The notes under the pieces: model-generated
What the model was told of the DNA's origin: nothing
The model's database searches: none
The model's input: only the letters and a program-made list of their open reading frames with translations
Shown here: in pieces, positions 5,612 to 54,127 of the stretch
Position numbering within the stretch: the stretch's first letter is position 1
How the letters are laid out: the number at the start of each line of letters is the position of its first letter
Source of the DNA: Candidatus Poribacteria bacterium
Lineage (GTDB): Bacteria > Poribacteria > WGA-4E > WGA-3G
DNA length: 64,000 nt
NCBI GenBank assembly: GCA_964291315.2
Contig: OZ219753.1
Location: 1,152,001-1,216,000 of the forward strand
Reading direction: 5' to 3'
Made by a program: the position numbers and the translations under genes

Positions 5612-5641
5612 TTGACATTGAGGTGCGTTTTAAGATATATT
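5612..5641 (+). promoter_or_regulatory. Sigma70-type promoter of lamin-tail cassette 1
   Basis: TTGACA-18 nt-TATATT; near-identical to 50580-50608. Confidence 0.75.
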
Positions 5642-5695: not shown

Positions 5696-6205
5696 ATGCG
5701 ACATATGAAAGCTGTAGACACTTCCCCCAGAATCATGAAGTCAGCGAGGCTTAGCCACCTCTTGGATATTCAGGGCCCGTTATATCGCCTAAGCTTTGCT
5801 GTTGTTGTGGTTGTTAGCCCCCCCCCCGCTCCACACACAATAAGTACTTTATCCCCTCTATCACAAAATATCCTCTCGCTCCACCGCACTACCCGCTTTG
5901 CGCCTGCTTGCCAGCTGACCCAACAGCACGGGATCTCACACCGACTAAAGAGCCTCCCGCAGCGGAAGAGAGGCACGAGCCAACCCCATTCTATAGCAAA
6001 AGAAGCAGTAGTTCTATTCTTTTCATATGTTTTTGTTTTATTCTGTTGTTCTGTTTGCACACAGTTTAGGGAGTTTTGGCACTGCTATTTAACGCGCGAG
6101 AACAAGGAGGTTGAAATCAGGAGGTTTCCAGCAGAATCTCCGTTACGCCTTAACATCAATAGATCTGAGGGGGGTTCCCTCAGGATAAAGTTGACGTGTA
6201 AGTAA
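5696..6205 (+). other. Leader ORF (169 aa) in the conserved 5' leader, spanning a C10 tract
   Basis: Open frame homologous to the frameshifted leader ORF at 50670-51166. No clear SD, so translation is unproven. Confidence 0.5.
5818..5827 (+). repeat. Poly-C10 homopolymer tract
   Basis: Read directly; equivalent position to C9 at 50798-50806. Confidence 0.9.
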
Positions 6206-6288
6206 GCGAGAATGGGGCCGCTATCTCTGCGGTCATCTCTCATTATGTCTATATTTAACCAATATCAATAACAGAGGAGAATGAAGTA

Positions 6289-9123
6289 ATGTTATGGAAT
6301 AAAATCAGAATTTTCGTGGTCTTAGCACTCGTATCTATTTTTGCAACCACACACGCTTTTGGTATCCTTCGCACTTTAACTGTCTCGAACTATGAGAATT
6401 GGCCTAAACTCAAGAACGCCAAGAGCTTTTCGCTCATTATGAAAAATCTCAGTTTAATTGTGGGTGCTCCTTACGTCGGCGTTGTCGCTGACGTTCGTAT
6501 AAGTAACGAGGTACAAGGGCGGCAGATCGATGATTTGGTAGACCTGAAGGATTTACTGGTGCGCGGCGGCGCCATCACAATTTCAATGCGGGTGCCGCTA
6601 GCAGCCGAAATTACCAGCGATGGCGCTGCCAACCATACCCTAAAAGCCGACGCCTCAGATGCGGATCTGATGGCGATGAAGCACCGCATCGTCATCACCG
6701 AGGTGAATTGGGGGACGGATACCCCGCACAGAACCGGTGCGCAATGGTTTGAACTCTATAACGCTGGCGCCGCTTTGAAAACCAACGATTATATCAGATG
6801 GCGCACGCATCCCCGTTTAGACAAAGCCGCTGTCCCCGAACCGGGTAAGACGTTCATGTGGGACGATGACGGTAATGGGGAGCGCAAGTTTGTTGTTTTG
6901 GATCGTGTCGCCACGATCGATCGTTTTGGTAACCCGTGGGAGCTGAAAGGTGCGGATGGCGATACTGCCGATGGTGAGCCCGATGCTGATCCTTCTACCA
7001 CTGAGATTGATCTACCTACCGATAGGGATACCGGGGATCCTGACAATGCGATGGCCTCTATGTATCGGAAGATCGATCTAGATGCCACGGGTATGGCGTA
7101 TGCCTATGAAAATGGAAAACTGAAGGGCCTCGGAGAAGGCAACGAAGCCAGCTCCTGGGAGGCATCTAAATATAAGAGTAAGTATCTCATGAGAGGTAAT
7201 TACATAGCGAGTCCCGGGGCTGTTCACTCGCTTAATCCGGATGGACCGGGTGCAGTCCAGTTCACTATGACCCCCGCCTCTATCTCTCCTACCGGCATTA
7301 TCATTAACGAGGTGCGCAATGATCCCTCAAGTGCGAACTTGGATTGGATAGAGCTGCTCTATAACAGTGATGATCCCGAAGCCAAGCCCGTGAATATAGA
7401 GAACTATAAGCTGAGCCTGGTGATGGGGAAGATGAAGTCTGATGGGAGCTATCACGAGTCGGGCGATGCCAACTTCACGGAAACCAAACTCGCGGTGCTG
7501 CCGAAATACGAGATGACACCGGGCGAGTATGTCGTGATCTATAACCGGGAGCCTGGGAAGAGTGTTGGGTTTGCTGGCGGTGAAAAACTTCAGGATCTCT
7601 CTGCGAAAACGCACATCAAAAAGGGTGCCACGCACAAGTATGTGGTAGAGACAGACCTGAAGCTGCCCGCTGAAGGGAAGTTCTTGATCCTGCTGCGCAC
7701 GCGGAATAGTGCGGATGACGTTGGCAAGCCGTCAAATGTCAAAGATTATGCCGGCAACGGTTTCTTTAAGCGCATGGAAGATAAGAAGTTCGATACGAGT
7801 GTGTGGCCGTTTGTGGCGTGGTCTGCCCCGGGAGACGTTGAGGACTTCGGTAGCATGAACACCTTCGCCTCTACAAGTATGTCGTTTGGTCGGGGGGCTC
7901 AGTTGAGCGCGAAGGGCATGTATTGGGCGAAGTCTCGTGCCAACCGTGTTCACAAAGACGATTGGATGACCTTCGGTTTCATGGGTGCTGGCTACGATCG
8001 CGGGCGCGATAAAACGGTTGACACAGCGAGTGCCCCTGGCACGCCGGGGTATCCGAACATAGGGGTGAGTATGATCGCGGATGACAAAAACACCGCATCC
8101 ACTGACGATGACTACGCCTTCGATGGCAAAGTGAGCATCAGCGAGATTATGTATGATGCGGGGCCGCGCTCAAACTTGGCGCAGTGGATAGAACTCTACA
8201 ACAGCTCTATGACGGAGACGCTAGACCTTGCGGGCTGGGAGTTAGAGGTCCGCAATGAGCGGACAGTGACAGGTTCGTATGTCAATGCGAAGTTCACATT
8301 TGATGCGGACACGTATCTGCCGCCGAATCAGACGTTGCTGCTGGTGTCGAACAATGGTGCGAACGACGTTGCAGAGAACTACGTCTATAACTTGCAGGAG
8401 AATCACGGGAGTGCTCTGGGTTTGACAGTGCGGGGTCGGCAGCTGCTGAGTGCGGCGGGCTTCCATCTGGAGCTGCGTGCGAAGGTCAACAAAGCCGGTG
8501 ACTCGGCGTTGATGGTAGTAGACACAGCCGGCAACATTGAGATATCGGGGACGGTGCGCACCCACGCCTGGGATTTGCCCGAGCGCGGTGAGATGCGGAT
8601 GTCTATCACCCGCACGTATAAAGGCGGTTCGAATCCCGATAACGGGTTGATGCAAGCCTCTTGGCGGCAGGCAAACCTAGCAGGTGCCTCGCTGACGTAT
8701 TACGGACACCGCGACGATATCAGTTCCCCCGGCTACCGGGTCGGTGGTCCGCTACCCGTTTCGCTCTCAAGTTTCCGCCCGGTGCGCGATGCCTCGACGG
8801 GCCACGTTGAGATTAGCTGGGTAACGCAGTCCGAGCTCAACAACGCCGGGTTCAATATCCTACGCAGTGAGAGCAAGACGGGTGAGTTTGCGGTTATCAA
8901 CACCAAGGGGCTGATTGCGGGACACGGCACCACCTCCGAGAAGCACGTGTATACCTACACAGATACCGCTGCGAAACCCAACGCCGTCTATTACTACCAG
9001 ATAGAAGACGTCTCTATGGACGGGGTGCGCACAACGTTACGGACGACGCATCTGCGGGGCGATGTCTCTGCGAGGGGTAAACTCACGACGCGGTGGGGAG
9101 AGCTCAAATCGTCTGACAAATAG
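6289..9123 (+). CDS. Secreted lamin-tail-domain protein, paralog 1 (C-terminal PLPVSLSSF Ig-like domain + GKLTTRWGELK tail)
   Basis: Signal peptide MLWNK...AFG; three 'I(I/S/V)xE(V/I)...WxELY' LTD-type motifs with SPG/TPG ends; RBS AACAGAGGAG. Confidence 0.85.
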   Translation: MLWNKIRIFVVLALVSIFATTHAFGILRTLTVSNYENWPKLKNAKSFSLIMKNLSLIVGAPYVGVVADVRISNEVQGRQIDDLVDLKDLLVRGGAITISMRVPLAAEITSDGAANHTLKADASDADLMAMKHRIVITEVNWGTDTPHRTGAQWFELYNAGAALKTNDYIRWRTHPRLDKAAVPEPGKTFMWDDDGNGERKFVVLDRVATIDRFGNPWELKGADGDTADGEPDADPSTTEIDLPTDRDTGDPDNAMASMYRKIDLDATGMAYAYENGKLKGLGEGNEASSWEASKYKSKYLMRGNYIASPGAVHSLNPDGPGAVQFTMTPASISPTGIIINEVRNDPSSANLDWIELLYNSDDPEAKPVNIENYKLSLVMGKMKSDGSYHESGDANFTETKLAVLPKYEMTPGEYVVIYNREPGKSVGFAGGEKLQDLSAKTHIKKGATHKYVVETDLKLPAEGKFLILLRTRNSADDVGKPSNVKDYAGNGFFKRMEDKKFDTSVWPFVAWSAPGDVEDFGSMNTFASTSMSFGRGAQLSAKGMYWAKSRANRVHKDDWMTFGFMGAGYDRGRDKTVDTASAPGTPGYPNIGVSMIADDKNTASTDDDYAFDGKVSISEIMYDAGPRSNLAQWIELYNSSMTETLDLAGWELEVRNERTVTGSYVNAKFTFDADTYLPPNQTLLLVSNNGANDVAENYVYNLQENHGSALGLTVRGRQLLSAAGFHLELRAKVNKAGDSALMVVDTAGNIEISGTVRTHAWDLPERGEMRMSITRTYKGGSNPDNGLMQASWRQANLAGASLTYYGHRDDISSPGYRVGGPLPVSLSSFRPVRDASTGHVEISWVTQSELNNAGFNILRSESKTGEFAVINTKGLIAGHGTTSEKHVYTYTDTAAKPNAVYYYQIEDVSMDGVRTTLRTTHLRGDVSARGKLTTRWGELKSSDK

Positions 9124-9138
9124 CAGACACAACGTATA

Positions 9139-9184
9139 ACGCAAGCTCGATACATATTCATGCAAATATGTGTCAAGCTTGCGT
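9139..9184 (+). other. Intergenic stem-loop between paralogs 1 and 2
   Basis: ACGCAAGCT-C-GATACATATT ... AATATGTGTC-A-AGCTTGCGT; no U-tract. Confidence 0.7.
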
Positions 9185-9211
9185 CACCAATAACAGAGGA
9201 GAACAAACGTA

Positions 9212-31552: not shown

Positions 31553-32599
31553 ATGCCAGTTGTATCTCACGATGTGTTAAGGGAATTTGTATATAATATT
31601 TATCGCGGTGCTGGTGGCACGGAGGAGGACGCTCGTATCGTCAGCGATCACGTTGTTGACTCTAATCTCGTTGGGCATGATTCACACGGTGTCATCAACG
31701 CCCCGAACTACATAGGCGGTATGGAGGGGGGGGCCGCCGCAGATAAGATGGAGGTTGTCAGGAATGGTGGTGCAGCAACCGTCATCAATGCCAATGGTGC
31801 GCTTGGGATGGTTGCTGCGCGTAAGGCGATGGAAATGGCTGTTGAAAGGGCGCGGTGTTGCACCATCGGCGCTGTCGGCTTACACCGGTGTGGGCATGCG
31901 GGGCGCATGGGCGAATACCCGCCCATTGCTGCGCGAGCGGGGATGATTGGTATTGTGTTACTCAACGGCGGTGGACGCTTTATGCACCCGCACGGTGGCA
32001 CCTCTCGAAGACTGCCCCCGAACCCGATTGCGATCTCCGTGCCGCGAAAAGAGGGTGCCCCGCTTCTCCTCGATATGACACTGAGTGTCGTTGCGGGCGG
32101 AAAACTGCTGGTTCACACTGCCCGCGGTGAGTCGATACCGGAAGGGTGGATGATAGATTCGGAGGGGAAGGCGCTCACTGATCCAAATGCGTTTCGCCAA
32201 CGTCCACAAGATACAGCCGTTATGCCGCTGGGTGGTTTCCAATTTGGGCACAAAGGGTTCGGGCTTGGTGTGATGATAGATGCGATCGCGGGCGGGCTTT
32301 CTTGGGCGGGGTGTAGTCGTGAAGCTCCGACGCGTGGGGCAAGTGGTATCGTAATGTTTGCGATCAAAATTGCGGATTTTATAGAGTTAGCCGATTATGA
32401 ACGCGAAATCGAACATCTCGTAAAGTGGGTGAAGTCATCTGCGCGGCTTCCAGGTGTCGACGAGATCTACGTTCCCGGAGAGTTTGAGGAACGGAGTCGC
32501 GAAAAACGTTTGCGGGAGGGTATCCCGATTGAAGAGCCGACTTGGGACCGCCTTGTTGAAGCTGCGAAACGTTTCCATGTCGCTGTCCCGAGTCTCTAA
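31553..32599 (+). CDS. Ldh_2 family (malate/L-lactate/ureidoglycolate dehydrogenase-like) oxidoreductase
   Basis: Motifs GHDSHG, H.GR.G.Y, NPIA, LDM, PLGG...HKGFGL and PGE.E. Confidence 0.9.
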   Translation: MPVVSHDVLREFVYNIYRGAGGTEEDARIVSDHVVDSNLVGHDSHGVINAPNYIGGMEGGAAADKMEVVRNGGAATVINANGALGMVAARKAMEMAVERARCCTIGAVGLHRCGHAGRMGEYPPIAARAGMIGIVLLNGGGRFMHPHGGTSRRLPPNPIAISVPRKEGAPLLLDMTLSVVAGGKLLVHTARGESIPEGWMIDSEGKALTDPNAFRQRPQDTAVMPLGGFQFGHKGFGLGVMIDAIAGGLSWAGCSREAPTRGASGIVMFAIKIADFIELADYEREIEHLVKWVKSSARLPGVDEIYVPGEFEERSREKRLREGIPIEEPTWDRLVEAAKRFHVAVPSL

Positions 32600-36712: not shown

Positions 36713-36791
<79 letters not shown>

Positions 36792-47403: not shown

Positions 47404-50400
47404 ATGACCCTTCAAGAAATAATTTTGGCGTTAGAAAAATTTTGGGCAGACCAAGGCTGCATCATCCAACATCCGTGTGATATAGAAGTAGGTGCAGGCA
47501 CATTTAACCCCGCGACCTTTTTACGGTGCCTCGGACCGGAGCCGTGGAAGGTTGCCTATGTAGAACCGGTCCGGCGTCCAACCGATGGTAGATACGGTGA
47601 AAACCCTTTTCGGGTTGGCGCGTACTATCAATATCAGGTCATTCTCAAGCCGGCCCCGGAGAACGTTCTTCCGCTCTACCTTGAAAGTCTTTATCATCTC
47701 GGTATCTCGCCCCGCAAGAACGATATCCGATTTGTGGAAGACGACTGGGAGTCCCCAACCCTGGGTGCGTCTGGATTGGGTTGGGAGGTTTGGTGGAACG
47801 GCGCGGAGGTCACGCAATTCACCTATTTTCAGCAGATGGGGAGTATTGACCTTGCGCCCGTCTGTGCTGAGATTACCTACGGGCTTGAACGCATCGCGCT
47901 CTACCTACAAGATGTGGATAACTTCTTCGACATCCGCTGGAACGAACACGTTAACTACGGGGATGTACATCGGCAGAGCGAAGTCGAATATTCAACTTAC
48001 AATTTTGAGCGTGCCGATGTAGAGATGCTTTTTGAGCTGTTCGGCACCTACGAGAAGGAGACGCACGCCTGCCTAGATGCTGGGTTAGTGCTACCGGCTA
48101 CTGATCACGTTCTGAAGTGTTCCCACACCTTCAACATGCTTGATGCCCGCGGTGTTATCAGCGTCACAGAGCGGGTCAGTTACATTGAACGTGTGCGGCG
48201 GCTCGCCCAACGGATTGCCCGGGCTTACGTCAAACAACGTGAAGAGATGGCACACCCGCTTGTGGGGCGTTTCGGCACGGGAACTCAACCTATCGGAGAT
48301 AGCGGCTTCGTTCCGGTAACCGACAGCGCCGTATCACCGTCTCAAGAGACTGCTGATTTTCTTTTTGAAATCGGCACGGAAGAGATACCTGCGAGCTATG
48401 TTCCGCCTGTGCTTGCGCAGCTTCGCGAGATCGCAACTGAGTCACTTACAGATCAGAGGATCCCGTTCGGTGCCATCGAGACGCTCGGTACTCCGCGTCG
48501 GGTTACGGTCAGTATCAAGCGCGTAAAGACGTTTCAAGAAAGTCGAGAGACAGAGGTGGTGGGACCGCCAAAGCGTGTGGCTTATGACGAGAGGGGCGAG
48601 CCGACAAAAGCTGCTATCGGCTTCGCGCGGACGCAAGGGGTTGAGCTCGCCGCCCTCCGCATCGTCGAAACCGAGCGGGGCGAATATGTTGCTGCCTCTA
48701 AACTTGAAACGGGCGAACCGACGCGGGCGGTTTTGAAAAAACTCCTGCCCGAATGGGTCCAAGCCCTTCGCTTTCCGAAAACGATGCGCTGGGAAACAGA
48801 GTCTGGGGATGCAGGCACTTTCGCTCGTTTCGCGCGCCCGATCCGATGGCTTGTGGCACTATTGGGCGCTGATGTCGTCAGCTGCACCTACGGTGCCGTG
48901 GAGGCGGGACGCGTCACCTATGGACATAGGTCCTTGCATCCTGAGCCGATAGCCCTGGCATCCGCGGACTTAGAGGTCTATGCTGAGAGGCTGCGCGCCG
49001 CAGGTGTGATTGTTTGTCAAAATGAGCGCCGTGAAACGATCAAAAAACAGGTTGCAACCCTTTTAAAAGCGGAAGGTTGTCTGCCTATACTCGACGACGA
49101 ATTGCTTGACACAGTAAATTATCTCGTAGAGAACCCGCAGCCCGTCGTTGGCAATTTTAGCGAGTCGCATCTGAAAATACCGTCTGAGGTGCTAATCACG
49201 GCTATGAAGAAGCATCAGCGTTATTTTCCGATGTGGATGTCGGAGACTGCTCTTGCTGCGAAATTTATTACGATTTCCAACGGTACAGATGGCAATATTG
49301 AGGGTGTTCGGCATGGAAACGAACGGGTGCTCCATGCTCGCCTCAACGATGCTGCGTTTTTCTATCGGGAGGATCAGAAAACCGGGCTTGCCGATAAGGT
49401 GGAACGTTTAGGTGCGGTCGTTTTCCATGCCAAACTGGGTTCGCTTTTAGAAAAGGTGGAACGACTTAAGACCCTTGTTTCATATATCGGCGGCCACCTG
49501 CGGCTTTCGGAAACGTCTGTGCATCATGCGGCGCGCGCGGCGTGGTTGTGTAAGGCAGACTTGACGACGCAAATGGTTATAGAATTTCCATCACTGCAGG
49601 GCATCACAGGGCGACATTACGCGCGCAACTCGGGCGAGGTGGCATCTGTTGCTGCGGCTATTGCGGAACACTACCAACCGCTTGGTGCGGATACGCCGCT
49701 GCCTGAAACTGAGATCGGTGCGATCGTTTCTATCGCTGATAAGATCGACACGATTGTCGGCTATTTCGGAATAGGAGAGCGTCCGACAGGTTCGCAAGAC
49801 CCGTACTCGTTACGGCGAAACGCCCTCGGCACAATTCGTATAGTTCAAGAGCTGCAGCTGTCACTCTCTTTAGGGGCGGTTGTCCAAAAGGCACACTCAC
49901 TTTACGGAGTCGCGTTGGCGGGCGATACGGAGACGAGCGTTCTTAACTTCATCAAAGAACGTCTACGCGTCATCTTGCTGCAAACGCAGCGGTTCGCTCC
50001 GGATCTTGCCGATGCTGTGTTAGCGGTGGGTGAGGTTGACGTTATTGATGTTTTCAGCCGCGCCACCGCGCTTGCCGAATTTCGCTTGACACCGAGTTTC
50101 GAGGCAGTCTATAATGCCTTGAATCGGGTGCTGCGAATTTTACCGCAGCGTCCCCCGGAGACGGTAGAGACTACGTTGCTCCGTGAAGTGGCTGAAAAGC
50201 GATTGTCTGACGTTATCACTGAATTAGAGCCGGGCTTTAAGCGGAGTCTTCGGGAAGGTGACTACGGTAAGCTCTTAGCGCAACTGGCTGCTTTACAGCC
50301 AACTATCGACAAATTCTTTGATGAAGTGCTGGTTATGGCGAAAGAACCAGCCCTGCGCGCCAACCGGTTGGCGCTGTTGAATCGAATTGGACAGAATGTT

Positions 50401-50445
50401 TATGCGGTTGCTGATCTCACAAAGCTCGTAATCGCTGGGAACTGA
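47404..50445 (+). CDS. glyQS: Glycine-tRNA ligase, fused alpha+beta subunits
   Basis: Alpha motifs [34 protein letters not shown]; beta motifs [28 protein letters not shown]; single 1013-aa frame. Confidence 0.95.
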
Positions 50446-50579
50446 TAAAATAGTCATCAGCTATGAACTATAAGGTGGTTACACCTTCACCAAAAGGCGT
50501 TCTCTCATGTGTGTATTATATGACTCTTCTGCAAAATAGGTGACTTTTTTCTTGTATATCAGAGAAACTGAAAAAAGAC

Positions 50580-50608
50580 TTGACATGAGGTGCGTTTTAA
50601 GATATACT
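50580..50608 (+). promoter_or_regulatory. Sigma70 promoter of lamin-tail cassette 2
   Basis: TTGACA-17 nt-TATACT; spacer nearly identical to 5612-5641. Confidence 0.8.
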
Positions 50609-50669
50609 TAATAAATAATATATTGTAGAAGATGCAGCATGAAATAGTCCGAAAGTGAATTTGTAATCT

Positions 50670-51166
50670 ATGCGACATATGAAAGCTTTAGACACAGGCT
50701 CCAGAATTAGCACGTCAGATCGGCTTAGCCCCCTCTTGGGTATTCAGTGCCTATTATATCGTCTAATCCGTGCATTTAGTTGGCTTTTTAGCGATTACCC
50801 CCCCCCTTACCTTTACACACAGTAAGTGTTTTATCCCCTTTATCACAAAACATACCGGCGCACCGCGGCTCTACCCACTTTGCGCCTGCTCGCCAGCTGA
50901 CCCAACAGCACAAGATCGCACACCGGCCACAGAGCGTCCGGCAGCCGAAGATAGGCAGGAGCAAAGCCGATCCTATAGCAAAAGAGACAGCCGCTCTATT
51001 CTTTTCATATGTTTTATGCTGGCGTTCCGTTTTCACGCCCTTTAGGGACACTTGGTGCCGCCATTCAAAATACGCAAGGACAAGGCGGACTGAAATTTGG
51101 AGGCTGCCCCCGTTCCCTCTTCCTATGGAGAGCTGGAGGGTTCTTCACATAAAGTTGATTTCGTAA
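50670..51166 (+). other. Leader ORF frameshifted at the C9 tract (51 aa as read; 165 aa if C10)
   Basis: ATG 50670 reads MRHMKALDT... to TAA 50823-50825. The frame starting at 50807 is stop-free to TAA 51164-51166 and aligns with 5696-6205. Confidence 0.55.
50798..50806 (+). repeat. Poly-C9 homopolymer tract
   Basis: Read directly; equivalent to C10 at 5818-5827. Confidence 0.9.
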
Positions 51167-51256
51167 GCAGAGCGAATGGATCTGTCATCCGTGATTCCAT
51201 TCTTATTTGATTTATGTTTAATATATGAATAACAGAGGAGGATGAGACTAATGTCA

Positions 51257-54127
51257 ATGTTATGGAATAAAATGAGACTATTTGTGGTGTTGGGCCTGGT
51301 GTGTTTCTTCTCAACATCCCAGGCTTCCGCTCTTCAGCAGGATAACGCATGGCAATCGAAGAAAGGTAGCTTTTATGTTTTCACAGCCGGAGCATTGAGC
51401 CCTGCGAGCGAAACACCCACACTCGCTGACAACGGCATCGTGGACACGGTAAAAGGGAGCCCGAAGGAAATTGTTTCTGAGACTTATTTTCCGGTGGAGT
51501 GGCAGGAAATGCAGGAGATATTCCGCGGAGGCGGCGGGTTTGCCGTTGCAGCGGCGATTCCGTCTCCAGGCGACACGGGCCAGTTCACGTTTGCTAAGCA
51601 TAAAAGTTGGGCTGCTACAAAGGCGGGTGCGGACGCGTTAGAGCCTACCGAAGAGGCAAAAGCCTTGGCGCAGACGCTCAAGCAGGCAATTGTTTTCAGC
51701 GAGGTCATGTGGGGTCGGGATTTCGCTGCGAGAACTGATGGTCCCGGCGAGTTTGGGGCCCAATGGGTTGAATTTTACGTCAATAAACCTTTGAAAAGCA
51801 ACGATGTGGTGGTATTCAGATCATATAGTAATGCGACCGAGATGCCTGCTCCGGGTGATATAGTATCAGTAACTCAGGGCGGTGGTTCTAATTTTTATCG
51901 CCATCATTATGTCTTTTTGGATCGTATATCAACGATCGATCGTTGGGGTAGGAATTGGTTCCCGGATGCGCCGGGTAAAGACGGTGATACCGATGGCAAC
52001 ACAAATGCCGGCCTGCCTCCGACGCCTGTGGTCTCTATGTATCGGGATATCAAACTTGATAGCACAGGGAAGGCGTATGCGGTCAAAGATGGTAACCTGG
52101 ATGGACTCGGTGATGGCAGCGAACCCAGCTCCTGGAAGGAGTCCGTCGGCCGCGTGAACATGGCGGGGCATTTCATCGGTTCCCCGGGCAGCGTTCACGT
52201 GCTTCATCCTGGCGGTCCCCATGTAACAAGGTTTGATAAGGCGCCTAAGGATGAAGATATCACGGCTACCGGCATCATCATCAATGAGGTGTACAACGAC
52301 CCGTCAAGTGCGAACTTGGATTGGGTAGAGTTGTTCTATAATACCGATGATGCGGCAGCTGCATCTATAAGCATAGAGAACTATAAGTTGAGCTTGGTGA
52401 TGGGGAAGATGAAGACTGATGGCAGCGGCTACCACGAGTCTGGGGATGCCAACTTCACGGAGACGAGCCTTGCGGTGCTGCCGAAATACAAGATGCGGCC
52501 GGGGGAGTATCTGGTGGTCTATAATCGGGAGCCTGGGAAGAGCGTTAAGCTCGCTGGGGGTGTGAACGTTAGCAACCTGTTGGACAGAACGGACATCAAT
52601 ATGGGTGCGACGCACAAGTATGCGGTTGCGAAGGATCTGAGTCTGCCTGCTACGGGCAAGTTCTTGATCCTGTTGCGCACGCGGAATAGTGCGGATGACG
52701 TTGGCAAGCCGACGAACATCAAAGACTACGCTGGCAACGGGTTCTTCAAGCGCATGGAAGATGGAAAGTTCAACACGTACCTCTGGCCGTTCGTGGGCTG
52801 GTCGAAGCCGGGAGATGTGGATGAGAGCGACTTCGGTGGTATGAACAGCTTCTCTTCTCGGAGCATGTCGTTCGGTCGGGGTGTGCACTTAAACGCGAAG
52901 GGGATGTATTGGGCGAAGTCTCGTGCGAATCGTGTCCACAAAGACGACTGGCAGTCGTTTGGTTTCATGGGTGCTGGCTACGATCGCGGCAAAGATAAAA
53001 CGATTGACAAGGCGAGTTCCCCTGGCACGCCGGGGTATCCGAACATGGTAGTGGGCGTGATCGCTGATGACAAAGACACCGCATCGACTGAAGACGACTA
53101 TGCGTTTGATGGAACAGTGACGATCAGCGAGATTATGTATGATGCGGGACCGCGCTGGGACTTGGTGCAGTGGATAGAGCTCTACAATAGTTCTATGACG
53201 GAGACGCTAAACCTTGAAGGGTGGGAGTTTGAGATCCGCAACGCCGACACAAACGTAGATGCGTATGTGGATGCGTCTTTCACGTTTGCTGCGGGGACGT
53301 ATCTGCCGCCGAATCAGACGTTGCTGCTGGTGTCGAAGAACGGTGTGAACGATGTGCCGGAGAACTACGTATACAATCTGCAACAGAAGCATCGTAGCGA
53401 TTTAGGGTTGGCGGCGAACGGTCGCCGGTTGCTGAGTGCGGAGGGTTTCCGTCTGGAGCTGCGTGCAAAGGTCAACATAGGTGGTCAGTCCCGGTTGCGG
53501 GTGATGGACACGGCTGGCAACGTTGAGATAGTGGAGGGTCTGCGCAAGCGTGCGTGGGAGCTGCCGAAGCGTGGGGATGTGCGGATGTCTATTGTGCGCA
53601 AGTCTGGAGGCATCTTCAATAACATGACAGAGGGTTCTGGTCCGCATGCTGCGGATGACGGTCTGATGAAAACCTCTTGGCGGAAGGGTTCCTCGCTGAC
53701 GTACTACGGACATCGTGACGATATCGGCACGCCGGGTCATCGTGCTGGGGGACCGCTGCCCGTGTCGCTCTCGAGTTTCCGTCCTGTGCGCGATGTCTCG
53801 ACGGGCCACGTTGAGATTACGTGGGTAACGCAGTCGGAGCTGAACAATGCGGGGTTCAATATCCTACGCAGTGAGAGCAAGACCGGTGAGTTTGCGGTTA
53901 TCAACGCCGAGGGTCTGATTGCTGGCCACGGCACGACGTCTGAGAGGCATGTGTATCGCTACACAGATACGACTGCGAAGCCGAGTGTGGTGTATTATTA
54001 CCAGATAGAAGATGTTTCTATGGATGGGGTGCGCACGACGTTACGGACGACGCATCTGCGTGGGGATGTCTCTGCGAATGGTAAACTCACAACGCGTTGG
54101 GGAGAGCTGAAATCGTCTGATAAATAA
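51257..54127 (+). CDS. Secreted lamin-tail-domain protein, paralog 3
   Basis: MLWNK signal peptide, same domain series and GKLTTRWGELKSSDK end; alternative starts at 51242/51251. Confidence 0.85.
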   Translation: MLWNKMRLFVVLGLVCFFSTSQASALQQDNAWQSKKGSFYVFTAGALSPASETPTLADNGIVDTVKGSPKEIVSETYFPVEWQEMQEIFRGGGGFAVAAAIPSPGDTGQFTFAKHKSWAATKAGADALEPTEEAKALAQTLKQAIVFSEVMWGRDFAARTDGPGEFGAQWVEFYVNKPLKSNDVVVFRSYSNATEMPAPGDIVSVTQGGGSNFYRHHYVFLDRISTIDRWGRNWFPDAPGKDGDTDGNTNAGLPPTPVVSMYRDIKLDSTGKAYAVKDGNLDGLGDGSEPSSWKESVGRVNMAGHFIGSPGSVHVLHPGGPHVTRFDKAPKDEDITATGIIINEVYNDPSSANLDWVELFYNTDDAAAASISIENYKLSLVMGKMKTDGSGYHESGDANFTETSLAVLPKYKMRPGEYLVVYNREPGKSVKLAGGVNVSNLLDRTDINMGATHKYAVAKDLSLPATGKFLILLRTRNSADDVGKPTNIKDYAGNGFFKRMEDGKFNTYLWPFVGWSKPGDVDESDFGGMNSFSSRSMSFGRGVHLNAKGMYWAKSRANRVHKDDWQSFGFMGAGYDRGKDKTIDKASSPGTPGYPNMVVGVIADDKDTASTEDDYAFDGTVTISEIMYDAGPRWDLVQWIELYNSSMTETLNLEGWEFEIRNADTNVDAYVDASFTFAAGTYLPPNQTLLLVSKNGVNDVPENYVYNLQQKHRSDLGLAANGRRLLSAEGFRLELRAKVNIGGQSRLRVMDTAGNVEIVEGLRKRAWELPKRGDVRMSIVRKSGGIFNNMTEGSGPHAADDGLMKTSWRKGSSLTYYGHRDDIGTPGHRAGGPLPVSLSSFRPVRDVSTGHVEITWVTQSELNNAGFNILRSESKTGEFAVINAEGLIAGHGTTSERHVYRYTDTTAKPSVVYYYQIEDVSMDGVRTTLRTTHLRGDVSANGKLTTRWGELKSSDK

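What the first reader, a model, noticed from the sequence alone, without database searches (positions are those of the whole stretch)
5696..6205. Candidate phase-variable leader-ORF switch (poly-C) upstream of lamin-tail surface-protein genes; copy 1 is in frame
Seen: between a near-consensus promoter and the gene lies a ~650-nt leader, duplicated at 50580-51256. Both copies start an ORF at the same ATG (MRHMKA.DT...) that crosses a poly-C tract. Here C10 (5818-5827) keeps the frame open for 169 aa, ending IKLTCK* 83 nt before the gene. Losing one C would reach the conserved TAA in ACACAATAAG within five codons. Gaining one C gives an intermediate frame ending at the conserved TTTAG near 6069. 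The conserved TAA, TGA and TAG of the central segment all fall in the C9 frame. The segment right after the tract is C-rich and G-poor, like a Rho-loading site. The two copies differ by many non-synonymous changes and by compensating indels, yet keep the frame, so openness rather than protein sequence appears conserved. Established: homopolymer slippage drives phase variation, and untranslated C-rich leaders permit Rho termination. Inference: tract length sets ribosome coverage of the leader and so switches or tunes the surface protein without altering its CDS. Caveat: the leader ATG has no clear SD.
Basis: partly seen in the sequence, partly recalled or inferred. Interest (0 to 1): 0.9.

Follow-up and report, generated by a model that had tools for sequence, protein, structure and literature searches.

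The report
Phase-variable leader-ORF attenuator in Poribacteria
A slippery run of C's inside a short upstream reading frame looks like a heritable random on/off switch placed in front of about two dozen surface and defence genes of a sponge symbiont. It resembles a pilus switch known from one Streptococcus.

Summary
ATG 5696, C10 at 5818-5827, a 169-aa ORF ending at 6205, a near-consensus promoter and a second leader copy at about 50580 are all present.

It is not a two-copy curiosity. This Candidatus Poribacteria genome holds 27 matches to the module. The module is also found in 50 of 64 other genomes searched in the genus, and in two sister genera.

The shared design has five parts:
- a sigma-70-type promoter;
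- a roughly 40-codon upstream ORF with no stop in 49 of 49 loci, against 91 and 132 stops in the other two frames;
- a poly-C tract of 8 to 17;
- stops in two frames within 36 nt or less;
- one long frame.

In 23 of 29 loci from other species a hairpin plus T-run terminator lies inside the long frame, just past the two short-frame stops. The peptide sequence is not conserved; only the open frame is.

This matches the Streptococcus gallolyticus pil1 switch, a repeat-variable leader peptide combined with attenuation. I rate it a new variant of a known kind.

For copy 1 no canonical terminator was found. Tract heterogeneity within a population could not be tested, because only contigs were available.

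The parts
5612..5641 (+). Sigma-70-type promoter of leader copy 1 (TTGACA-18-TATATT)
   Evidence: 11 of 12 positions match. A promoter scoring at least 10 of 12 lies upstream of the upstream ORF in 42 of 49 family loci.
5696..5817 (+). Upstream (leader) ORF from the ATG to the tract. A second in-frame ATG at 5705 is the one conserved across the family (ATGAAAG).
   Evidence: This frame has no stop in 49 of 49 loci; the other two forward frames have 91 and 132 stops. Substitutions show no codon-position bias. No SD motif.
5818..5827 (+). Poly-C tract, C10. It puts the leader ORF in the long frame.
   Evidence: X1 contig record 5 bridges it without a gap. Tracts are 8-10 in the 20 copies studied in this genome and 8-17 in 29 other species.
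5841..5843 (+). TAA that ends the leader ORF if the tract is C9 or C12 (short frame). It is part of the conserved post-tract element CACACARTAAGT.
5998..6058 (+). Weak A/U-rich hairpin followed by a U-rich run in mid-leader. Candidate first attenuator, poorly supported.
   Evidence: Python RNAalifold on six copies shows the helix, with AGAA/UUCU changing to AGAG/CUCU. The fold is no better than shuffles (z -0.11).
6067..6069 (+). TAG that ends the leader ORF if the tract is C8 or C11 (intermediate frame)
6165..6183 (+). Hairpin 1 (CTGAGGGGGGTTCCCTCAG). The long frame reads through it.
   Evidence: -12.6 kcal/mol, z -2.09. Present in 3' modules of other copies.
6203..6205 (+). TAA that ends the 169-aa long-frame leader ORF. 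It lies 2 nt before hairpin 2 and 83 nt before the gene.
6208..6239 (+). Hairpin 2 (GAGAATGG..GGCCGC..GCGGTC..CATCTC) followed by a U-rich stretch. Candidate attenuator or RBS-masking element.
   Evidence: -15 kcal/mol, z -1.91. The outer stem pairs in 85.7% of cells over 12 copies but shows no real covariation. Two terminator scans did not call it.
6289..9123 (+). Regulated gene: 944-aa exported protein with a lamin-tail domain. SD motif AGAGGAG at 6273-6279.
   Evidence: PF00932, E 5.5e-24.
50580..50608 (+). Promoter of leader copy 2 (TTGACA-17-TATACT)
   Evidence: 11 of 12 positions match.
50670..50825 (+). Leader ORF of copy 2 in its present short frame (51 aa). It crosses the C9 tract at 50798-50806 and stops at the conserved TAA.
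51164..51202 (+). Copy 2: TAA of the long frame (51164-51166), which would be used with C10 or C7. Hairpin 2 follows (GAATGGA..TCCATTC, 51174-51202) with a U-rich tail.
   Evidence: hairpin from +361 to +403, -10.2 kcal/mol, starting 1 nt after the long-frame stop..
51242..54127 (+). Regulated gene of copy 2: 961-aa lamin-tail-domain protein

Best explanation
Copy 1 is one member of a family of portable phase-variable leader-ORF attenuators.

Proposed mechanism:
1. A strong promoter makes an mRNA whose first reading frame, about 40 codons long, has a peptide sequence that does not matter. This frame runs into a poly-C tract.
2. Slipped-strand gain or loss of a C during replication decides which of three frames the ribosome follows after the tract.
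3. Two frames stop early. In copy 1 they stop at 5841-43, 14-16 nt after the tract, and at 6067-69, 240-242 nt after it. In most family members both stop within 36 nt.
4. The third frame carries the ribosome on towards the gene. In copy 1 it reaches 6203-05, directly in front of hairpin 2.
5. A ribosome following the polymerase through the leader prevents premature transcription termination and may also open the gene's ribosome-binding site. The downstream exported protein is then made only, or mainly, in cells whose tract is in the long phase (C10, C7 or C13 for copy 1).

In most family members the terminator is an intrinsic hairpin plus T-run. In the copy-1 subfamily it is either hairpin 2 or Rho acting on the C-rich untranslated leader.

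Shown here: the anatomy, its conservation and the variability of tract length between paralogues and between species.
Inferred: that the upstream ORF is translated, that the tract slips within populations, and that the long frame means ON.
For: Family size and spread:
- A sequence model of the module gives 27 matches in this genome. It matches in 50 of 64 other genomes of the genus.
- In the order-wide sample it matches 3 of 24 and 2 of 2 genomes of two sister genera, and 0 of 47 genomes of three other families.

Upstream ORF:
- No stop in 49 of 49 loci over the 35 codons before the tract. The other forward frames have 91 and 132 stops; the reverse frames have 130, 35 and 117.
- The peptide is not conserved. 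Variable sites by codon position are 12/11/11 and 42/36/39 among six copies in this genome. In six cross-species groups they are 56/48/59 and 108/101/110.

Tract:
- Present in 29 of 29 loci fetched from other species, with lengths 8-17.
- Near-identical flanks carry different lengths: C8, C10 and C11 in L050, L051 and L059; C14, C10 and C13 in L052, L069 and L077; C13 and C9 in L062 and L068.
- The genome has a surplus of C and G runs of 8-9. Counts for run lengths 6, 7, 8 and 9 are 257, 18, 22 and 11 for C, and 253, 29, 23 and 7 for G.

After the tract:
- The conserved GATAAGTAA-type element puts TAA in two frames.
- A pattern of two short frames plus one long frame as extreme as observed occurs in under 5% of shuffles for 40 of 49 loci.

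Terminator:
- A terminator-like hairpin plus T-run starts 40-150 nt after the tract in 23 of 29 loci from other species. Controls: 5 of 215 windows, and 0 of 29 on the opposite strand.
- In 24 of 29 it lies inside the long frame, and in 20 of those 24 it also lies beyond both short stops.

Long-frame end near the gene start:
- In DUF4007 loci the long-frame TAA overlaps the gene's SD and TTG start, as TTGAGTAA.
- In two copies with decayed tracts (C4:772686 and C4:2164375) I read the printed sequence by eye. The frame appears fixed in the long phase and ends at a TAA directly before the SD.

Copy 1:
- The long frame is open in the five sister copies (285-439 nt) despite indels. It ends 2 nt before hairpin 2.

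Regulated genes are exported or defence proteins: LTD, FGE-sulfatase, TonB_C, TonB-dependent receptor plug, Laminin_G_3 and DUF4007.

The same logic was shown experimentally for S. gallolyticus pil1 (PMC3894217; abstract and section 13 read).
Against: - No read-level evidence of tract heterogeneity. Only Logan contigs could be laid, and in X1 they show a single C10 form.
- The upstream-ORF start has an SD-like 4-mer in only 11 of 49 loci, and copy 1 has none.
- Copy 1 has no canonical terminator in either scan. In this genome only 6 of the 20 copies studied have a terminator-like site in or directly after the long frame.
- Hairpin 2 folds only moderately better than shuffles (z -1.91) and shows no covariation.
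- The long frame alone is individually unusual (p<0.05) in only 15 of 49 loci.
- In copy 1 the long-frame stop lies 83 nt before the gene. In 8 of the 20 copies in this genome the gap exceeds 100 nt.
- The present frame is the long one in only 10 of 49 loci: 6 of 20 in this genome and 4 of 29 elsewhere. Frame calls in long-read assembled genomes could be off by one C.
- The sign of the switch (long frame means ON) is inferred only from analogy and from my by-eye reading of two decayed copies. Another locked copy, C1:544k, where a 168-nt deletion removed the tract, sits in the intermediate frame.
Confidence: 0.6

Rival explanations
1. The same phase-variable leader ORF acts purely through Rho. 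In short frames the C-rich, G-poor leader is left untranslated, Rho loads there and terminates before the gene. No intrinsic terminator or hairpin is involved, at least in the lamin-tail-domain leader subfamily.
For: - A rho gene is present (444-aa frame, PF07497 at 96.8 bits).
- The 150 nt after the tract are 33-38% C and 18-20% G in the six long lamin-tail-domain leaders.
- No canonical intrinsic terminator was found in copy 1.
- Attenuation by Rho that depends on an upstream ORF is established for tnaC and speFL (review PMC12360218, passages read).
Against: - Most family members carry a clear hairpin plus T-run exactly where it is needed (23 of 29).
- The C over G bias is weak across the family, 26% against 19%.
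- In copy 2 the long-frame stop is 1 nt, and in copy 1 2 nt, before hairpin 2, which suggests a steric mechanism.
- Rho dependence cannot be computed.
Confidence: 0.22
2. There is no heritable switch. The tract works at the level of transcription or translation. One option is RNA polymerase slippage on the C run, giving a fixed mixture of frames. The other is ribosome stalling on the encoded polyproline (SPPPA in copy 1), which would tune termination according to elongation factor P or growth state.
For: - The tract always encodes at least two prolines inside the upstream ORF.
- Of the 20 tracts studied in this genome, 18 are 8 or 9 long.
- 19 identical G8 motifs in methyltransferase genes show no length variation.
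- X1 shows one length only.
Against: - Lengths of 8-17 between near-identical flanks in other species are what DNA slippage gives.
- Two-frame stops directly after the tract make sense only if the frame varies.
- Decayed tracts, which by my reading are fixed in one frame, fit a DNA-level switch that can be locked.
Confidence: 0.1
3. The poly-C tract is an RNA-level binding site for a G-rich small RNA or a protein, with tract length tuning the binding. It could alternatively pair with the G-rich SD. In either case the upstream ORF is irrelevant.
For: - Homopolymeric G repeats in 5' UTRs that are targeted by small RNAs in a length-dependent way are mentioned in PMC12721329 (one passage read).
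- Main-gene SD motifs in DUF4007 loci are G-rich, GGGGG or GGAGGG.
Against: - This does not explain 0 stops in the upstream-ORF frame of 49 loci or the two-frame stops after the tract.
- RNAalifold finds no consensus structure in the 5' module.
- No Rfam family matches the leader.
Confidence: 0.05
4. The leader is only a duplicated 5' UTR of a paralogous gene family. On this view the 169-aa ORF and the tract are chance features without function.
For: - Substitutions show no codon-position bias.
- No Pfam family matches the ORF.
- No SD motif.
Against: - The module stands in front of unrelated genes and in other genera.
- The tract is kept in 29 of 29 loci fetched from other species.
- The frame-specific lack of stops and the placement of the terminator are far from chance.
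Confidence: 0.03

Closest known systems
Streptococcus gallolyticus pil1 (and pil3) pilus switch: phase-variable leader peptide plus transcription attenuation (Danne et al. 2014, PMC3894217; abstract and section 13 read)
   Same: [quoted passage not shown]
- Out-of-frame changes move the leader stop from upstream of a premature hairpin terminator to within or beyond it.
- The translating ribosome then prevents the terminator from forming.
- The regulated products are surface structures.
- In pil1 the short leader ends 39 bp before the terminator. Here the short stops end 11-36 nt after the tract and the hairpins begin 48-148 nt after it.
   Different: - Here the repeat is a C homopolymer of 8-17, not 21-23 GCAGA units.
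- The cassette is multiplied to about 20-27 loci per genome, in front of unrelated genes, and is conserved across a bacterial family.
- Two of three frames are closed by a dedicated overlapping-stop element.
- In some loci the long-frame stop overlaps the start of the main gene.
- Copy 1 lacks a canonical terminator.
- Nothing here has been tested experimentally.
Poly-G/C contingency loci of Campylobacter, Helicobacter, Neisseria and Haemophilus (recalled; one Campylobacter paper seen only as a search listing)
   Same: - Homopolymeric G/C tracts of about 8 or more.
- A genome-wide surplus of such tracts.
- Targets are surface proteins and restriction-modification methyltransferases.
   Different: In the classical cases the tract lies inside the regulated coding sequence or in the promoter spacer. 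Here it lies in a separate, non-conserved upstream ORF, so the regulated protein itself is never truncated.
Attenuation by Rho that depends on an upstream ORF (tnaC, speFL), and Rho-linked phase variation by invertible DNA (fim, C. difficile flgB). Review PMC12360218, passages read.
   Same: Ribosome occupancy of a leader decides whether transcription reaches the gene. The stochastic ON/OFF output is linked to termination.
   Different: - Those upstream ORFs sense a metabolite through stalling.
- Those phase switches use recombinases, not slippage.
- Rho involvement here is untested.
Neisseria meningitidis siaD: a poly-C frameshift coupled to Rho-dependent termination inside the gene
   Same: A poly-C frameshift leads to premature translation stop, which leads to premature transcription termination.
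   Different: In siaD the tract lies inside the structural gene itself, not in a dedicated leader ORF.

Membership tests
Simple-sequence-repeat contingency locus (phase variation by slipped-strand mispairing) | Homopolymer tract long enough to slip (about 8 or more) | tested here: met
   C10 at 5818-5827. Tracts of 8-17 in 49 family loci.
Simple-sequence-repeat contingency locus (phase variation by slipped-strand mispairing) | Tract length varies while flanks stay conserved | tested here: met
   Shown between paralogues and between species (C8/C10/C11, C14/C10/C13 and C13/C9 with near-identical flanks). Not shown within one population.
Simple-sequence-repeat contingency locus (phase variation by slipped-strand mispairing) | Length heterogeneity and reversible switching within a population | not testable with these tools
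   Only Logan contigs were available. X1 shows one C10 contig. No raw reads could be laid.
Leader-peptide phase variation with attenuation (S. gallolyticus pil1 type) | Repeat tract inside a leader ORF upstream of the regulated gene, with frame changes moving the leader stop | tested here: met
Leader-peptide phase variation with attenuation (S. gallolyticus pil1 type) | Premature terminator placed beyond the short-frame stops and within or next to the long frame | tested here: inconclusive
   Met in 23 of 29 loci of other species and in 6 of the 20 copies studied in this genome. For copy 1 two scans found none. Only hairpin 2 is a candidate (-15 kcal/mol, z -1.91), and it shows no covariation.
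Leader-peptide phase variation with attenuation (S. gallolyticus pil1 type) | Regulation requires translation of the leader | not testable with these tools
   Indirect support only: 0 stops in the upstream-ORF frame of 49 loci. An SD-like motif is present in only 11 of 49.
Rho-dependent leader attenuation or polarity | Rho factor present | tested here: met
   PF07497 at 96.8 bits in a 444-aa open frame.
Rho-dependent leader attenuation or polarity | C-rich, G-poor unstructured RNA downstream of the early stop | tested here: inconclusive
   Copy 1 has 38% C and 18% G. The family mean is 26% and 19%, against 24% and 24% for the genome.
Rho-dependent leader attenuation or polarity | Termination depends on Rho activity | not testable with these tools
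   Needs bicyclomycin treatment or an in vitro assay.
Described structured RNA leader (riboswitch or other Rfam family) | Match to a curated covariance model, or a conserved fold | tested here: not met
   At gathering scores Rfam gives only one tRNA in the window, at 36713-36787. RNAalifold predicts 0 pairs on the 20-copy 5' module.

The most novel reading that the evidence does not exclude
The promoter, upstream ORF, poly-C tract, two-frame stop and terminator together form a self-contained, transplantable switch cassette. Poribacteria have copied it in front of some 20-27 unrelated surface, uptake and defence genes per genome. Each cell would therefore display a random combination of them.

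In the long lamin-tail-domain leaders such as copy 1, the three reading frames end at three successive checkpoints: 14-16, 240-242 and 376-378 nt after the tract. One tract would then encode three expression levels rather than a simple on/off state.
Probability: 0.3. Interest if true: 0.85.

Novelty: new variant of a known kind. Interest (0 to 1): 0.74.

Why it matters
Poribacteria are uncultivated sponge symbionts. How they vary their surface towards the host and towards phages is unknown. My search for Poribacteria together with phase variation found one paper, an unrelated review listed by title only.

If the reading is right, three things follow:
- A mechanism so far shown in a single Streptococcus locus would be a general, modular regulatory device. 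It would act without damaging the regulated protein.
- Symbiont genomes could be scanned for their stochastic regulon by sequence alone, using the model built here.
- The cassette would be a compact natural part for engineering heritable random switches.

Tried and rejected
- Rfam at gathering scores: nothing in either leader.
- Plain DNA search of 40 relatives with the copy-1 leader: one weak hit only. A strict motif search over 60 other genomes of the genus found one genome. The profile model was needed.
- My first promoter regular expression was too narrow and found nothing useful.
- RNAalifold on the 5' module: 0 pairs, so I dropped the idea of a structured RNA.
- fold_alignment on the 3' module proposed a different helix that I did not use. 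My own hairpin-2 stem pairs in 85.7% of cells but is almost invariant, so covariation gives no support.
- The mid-leader hairpin at 5998-6023 folds no better than shuffles (z -0.11).
- Test for a conserved peptide: no third-position excess, so I rejected a conserved small protein.
- Opposite-strand coding: no reverse frame is open in all loci.
- Sequencing runs: no RNA holder was listed. The four runs laid are contigs only, so tract heterogeneity, RNA ends and expression could not be read. The X2 contig with a GATTA insertion at 5818 may be an allele or the paralogue at C4:692k; I could not decide which.
- Metagenome scan with the conserved flanks: one contig only (L179, C14).
- One search stopped with a script error after 5 of 7 loci. 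Only those 5 are used.
- The supplements of the papers cited were not looked at.

Full report
**1. Observation**

- A promoter TTGACA-18-TATATT lies at 5612-5641 and matches 11 of 12 positions.
- An ATG at 5696 opens a 169-aa frame that ends at 6205.
- The frame crosses a C10 tract at 5818-5827.
- It stops 83 nt before a 944-aa gene with a lamin-tail domain.

I changed the tract length in silico. C9 gives 48 aa, stopping at 5841-43. C11 gives 124 aa, stopping at 6067-69. C10 gives 169 aa.

The second copy in the window (50560-51290) is 73% identical over 744 columns. It has C9 and a 51-aa ORF, and would give 164-165 aa with C10 or C7.

A frame open for at least 375 nt from the tract occurred in 24 of 5000 dinucleotide shuffles.

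A contig of public run X1 bridges 5746-5919 without a gap, so C10 is real in that run.

**2. It is a family**

- A DNA search of this genome gave 20 matches.
- I aligned 20 copies that have an intact tract and built a sequence-only model from them.
- The model finds 27 matches in this genome and matches in 50 of 64 other genomes of the genus.
- In a sample of the order it matches 3 of 24 and 2 of 2 genomes of two sister genera. It matches none of 47 genomes of three other families.
- Record titles of related loci name the organisms as Candidatus Poribacteria.

The genes behind the module are varied:
- lamin-tail-domain proteins;
- FGE-sulfatase-domain proteins;
- a TonB_C protein;
- a TonB-dependent receptor;
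- Laminin_G_3 proteins;
- DUF4007.

Most of their N-termini look like signal peptides (my reading of the sequences printed; no predictor was run). The DUF4007 protein is the exception.

**3. Shared anatomy**

*Promoter.* A promoter scoring at least 10 of 12 lies upstream in 42 of 49 loci.

*Upstream ORF.*
- A start lies about 110-145 nt before the tract in most loci.
- Over the 35 codons before the tract this frame has no stop in 49 of 49 loci.
- The other forward frames have 91 and 132 stops. The reverse frames have 130, 35 and 117.
- Counts for this genome alone are 0/65/51. Counts for the 29 loci of other species are 0/79/87.
- The peptide is not under selection. Variable columns are even over codon positions, both in this genome and across species.
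- RNAalifold predicts no conserved fold for this part.

*Tract.*
- Lengths are 8-10 in the 20 copies studied in this genome and 8-17 in loci from 29 other species.
- Near-identical flanks carry different lengths.

*After the tract.*
- A conserved element (CACACARTAAGT here, ACTTTACAAACGATAAGTAA in most other species) puts TAA in two frames.
- The three frames therefore end at, for example, 16, 20 and 135-267 nt.
- A pattern of two short frames and one long frame as extreme as observed arises in under 5% of shuffles for 40 of 49 loci.
- The long frame alone is individually unusual in only 15 of 49 loci.

**4. Terminator and coupling**

- In 23 of 29 loci of other species a G+C-rich hairpin followed by a T-run starts 40-150 nt after the tract.
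- The same scan hits 5 of 215 control windows further downstream in the same loci, and 0 of 29 on the opposite strand.
- In 24 of 29 loci the hairpin lies inside the long frame. In 20 of those it also lies beyond both short stops.
- In five DUF4007 loci the long-frame TAA overlaps the SD and TTG start of the gene, as TTGAGTAA.
- I read two copies in this genome whose tracts have decayed (C4:772686 and C4:2164375) from the sequences printed. By that reading they are fixed in the long frame, which ends at a TAA directly before the SD.
- Together this is the arrangement shown by experiment for S. gallolyticus pil1. There the short leader peptide ends 39 bp before a premature terminator, and longer out-of-frame versions end within or beyond it and prevent it from forming (PMC3894217).

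**5. Copy 1 in particular**

The lamin-tail-domain leaders are the longest, about 460 nt from tract to gene.
- In five of the six long copies the frames end 13-19, 239-242 and 285-378 nt after the tract. The sixth (C4:2059k) ends at 18, 92 and 439 nt.
- Neither scan finds a canonical terminator in copy 1.
- The long-frame stop at 6203-05 lies 2 nt before hairpin 2 (6208-6239; -15 kcal/mol, z -1.91). In copy 2 the hairpin starts 1 nt after the long-frame stop.
- The outer stem of hairpin 2 pairs in 85.7% of cells over 12 copies but hardly varies, so covariation is silent.
- A ribosome at the stop would cover the 5' arm of the hairpin.
- The 150 nt after the tract are 38% C and 18% G, and a rho gene is present.
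- For this subfamily I therefore cannot choose between Rho acting on the bare leader and a steric effect on hairpin 2. A mid-leader A/U hairpin with a U-rich run (5998-6058) is a weak third candidate.

**6. What speaks against the switch**

- No reads show tract heterogeneity. Only contigs were available.
- An SD-like motif precedes the start in only 11 of 49 loci. In four loci (L052, L054, L069, L077) the -10 box ends 6-8 nt before the ATG, which would give a leaderless message.
- Only 6 of the 20 copies in this genome have a terminator-like site in or directly after the long frame.
- The present frame is the long one in 6 of 20 copies in this genome and 4 of 29 loci elsewhere. Frame calls in long-read assemblies may be off by one C.
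- A locked copy at C1:544k has lost the tract through a 168-nt deletion. That deletion is also seen as a joint in X1 and X2 contigs. The copy sits in the intermediate frame.
- That the long frame means ON is an inference.

**7. Genome context**

- C and G runs show a surplus at lengths 8-9.
- Besides the leaders, about 30 methyltransferase genes carry such tracts. They fall into four paralogous families, 72-98% identical, with segments that BLAST does not align.
- 19 of these genes share the exact motif GC-G8-TAATC(T/A)(G/C)TGATAAG, in either orientation relative to the gene. No other genome of the genus has this motif (0 of 64).
- All the methyltransferase tracts are out of frame at the present length and would need 7 or 10. 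I did not resolve what this means.

**8. Comparison and novelty**

- The logic of a phase-variable leader peptide plus attenuation is known from one Streptococcus system.
- Rho-linked leader control and Rho-linked phase variation by DNA inversion are reviewed in PMC12360218 (passages read).
- Searches for Poribacteria with phase variation, for phase-variable upstream ORFs with homopolymers, and for phase variation with Rho or leader peptides turned up no description of a homopolymer-based, multi-locus leader cassette.
- New here are the homopolymer, the dedicated two-frame stop, and the multiplication to about two dozen loci across a family of uncultivated symbionts. A possible three-level output in the long leaders would also be new.
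- I rate it a new variant of a known kind, with interest 0.74.

Noticed in passing
G000 genome-wide, e.g. C1:431346-431369, C4:277478-277501, C4:461865-461888 (outside the window): 19 exact copies of the motif GC-G8-TAATC(T/A)(G/C)TGATAAG sit inside paralogous DNA methyltransferase genes (DPPY/NPPY motifs), in either orientation relative to the gene. All have G8 and all are out of frame (they need 7 or 10). The flank gives stops in both wrong frames. The motif is absent from 64 other genomes of the genus.
   Followed up: partly
G000 whole genome: Homopolymer census. For run lengths 6, 7, 8, 9 and 10 the counts are 257, 18, 22, 11 and 1 for C, and 253, 29, 23, 7 and 1 for G. The bump at 8-9 is typical of selected hypermutable tracts. 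Nearly all tracts follow (G)ATTA or TTA.
   Followed up: partly
G000 C4:772686-772864, C4:2164375-2164570, C4:1000153-1000332, C4:851795-851936, C4:1413885-1413989, C1:544548-545093: These leader copies have an interrupted, decayed or deleted tract (locked versions). By my reading of the printed sequences, two are fixed in the long frame, which ends at a TAA just before the SD. The 168-nt deletion of the C1:544k copy appears as a joint 5744>5913 in contigs of runs X1 and X2.
   Followed up: partly
G000 C1:9495, C4:2402822, C4:3144572, C4:939127, C4:3159100, C3:37342: These are further intergenic poly-C tracts (C8-C9) followed by GCTTTATGTAAGTTAAGT-like elements. One has a hairpin plus T-run about 80 nt downstream. 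They look like a more distant branch of the same cassette and were not analysed.
   Followed up: no
L052, L054, L069, L077 (other Poribacteria species): The -10 box (TAAAAT) ends only 6-8 nt before the upstream-ORF ATG. These leader ORFs may therefore be translated from leaderless mRNAs, which would explain the missing SD.
   Followed up: no
window about 9090-9211, and G000 C1:548024, C4:1029082, C4:2842727, C4:689164: The spacer between the first and second lamin-tail-domain genes of each pair is itself a conserved repeat of about 120 nt (..AAATCGTCTGACAAATAGCAGACACAAC..TGCAAATATGTGTCAAGCTTGCGTCACC..). It is found at five or more loci.
   Followed up: no
G000 C4:2515578-2515721, C4:1026093, C4:852007 (leader variants): Some leader variants carry what looks by eye like a second internal promoter (for example TTGACT-17-TATACT) in mid-leader. 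They lack the tract module, so the leaders are mosaics of exchangeable modules.
   Followed up: no
window 31726-31733: A G8 run lies in frame inside an apparently intact 348-aa ORF (31553-32599). It would serve as a control homopolymer for read-level tests.
   Followed up: no
window 47404-50445: Glycyl-tRNA synthetase alpha and beta subunits are fused in one 1013-aa ORF.
   Followed up: no
L078-L156: Lamin-tail-domain proteins of this type are greatly expanded in some Poribacteria genomes. One chromosome record supplies 22 of the 79 loci kept and another supplies 12.
   Followed up: no
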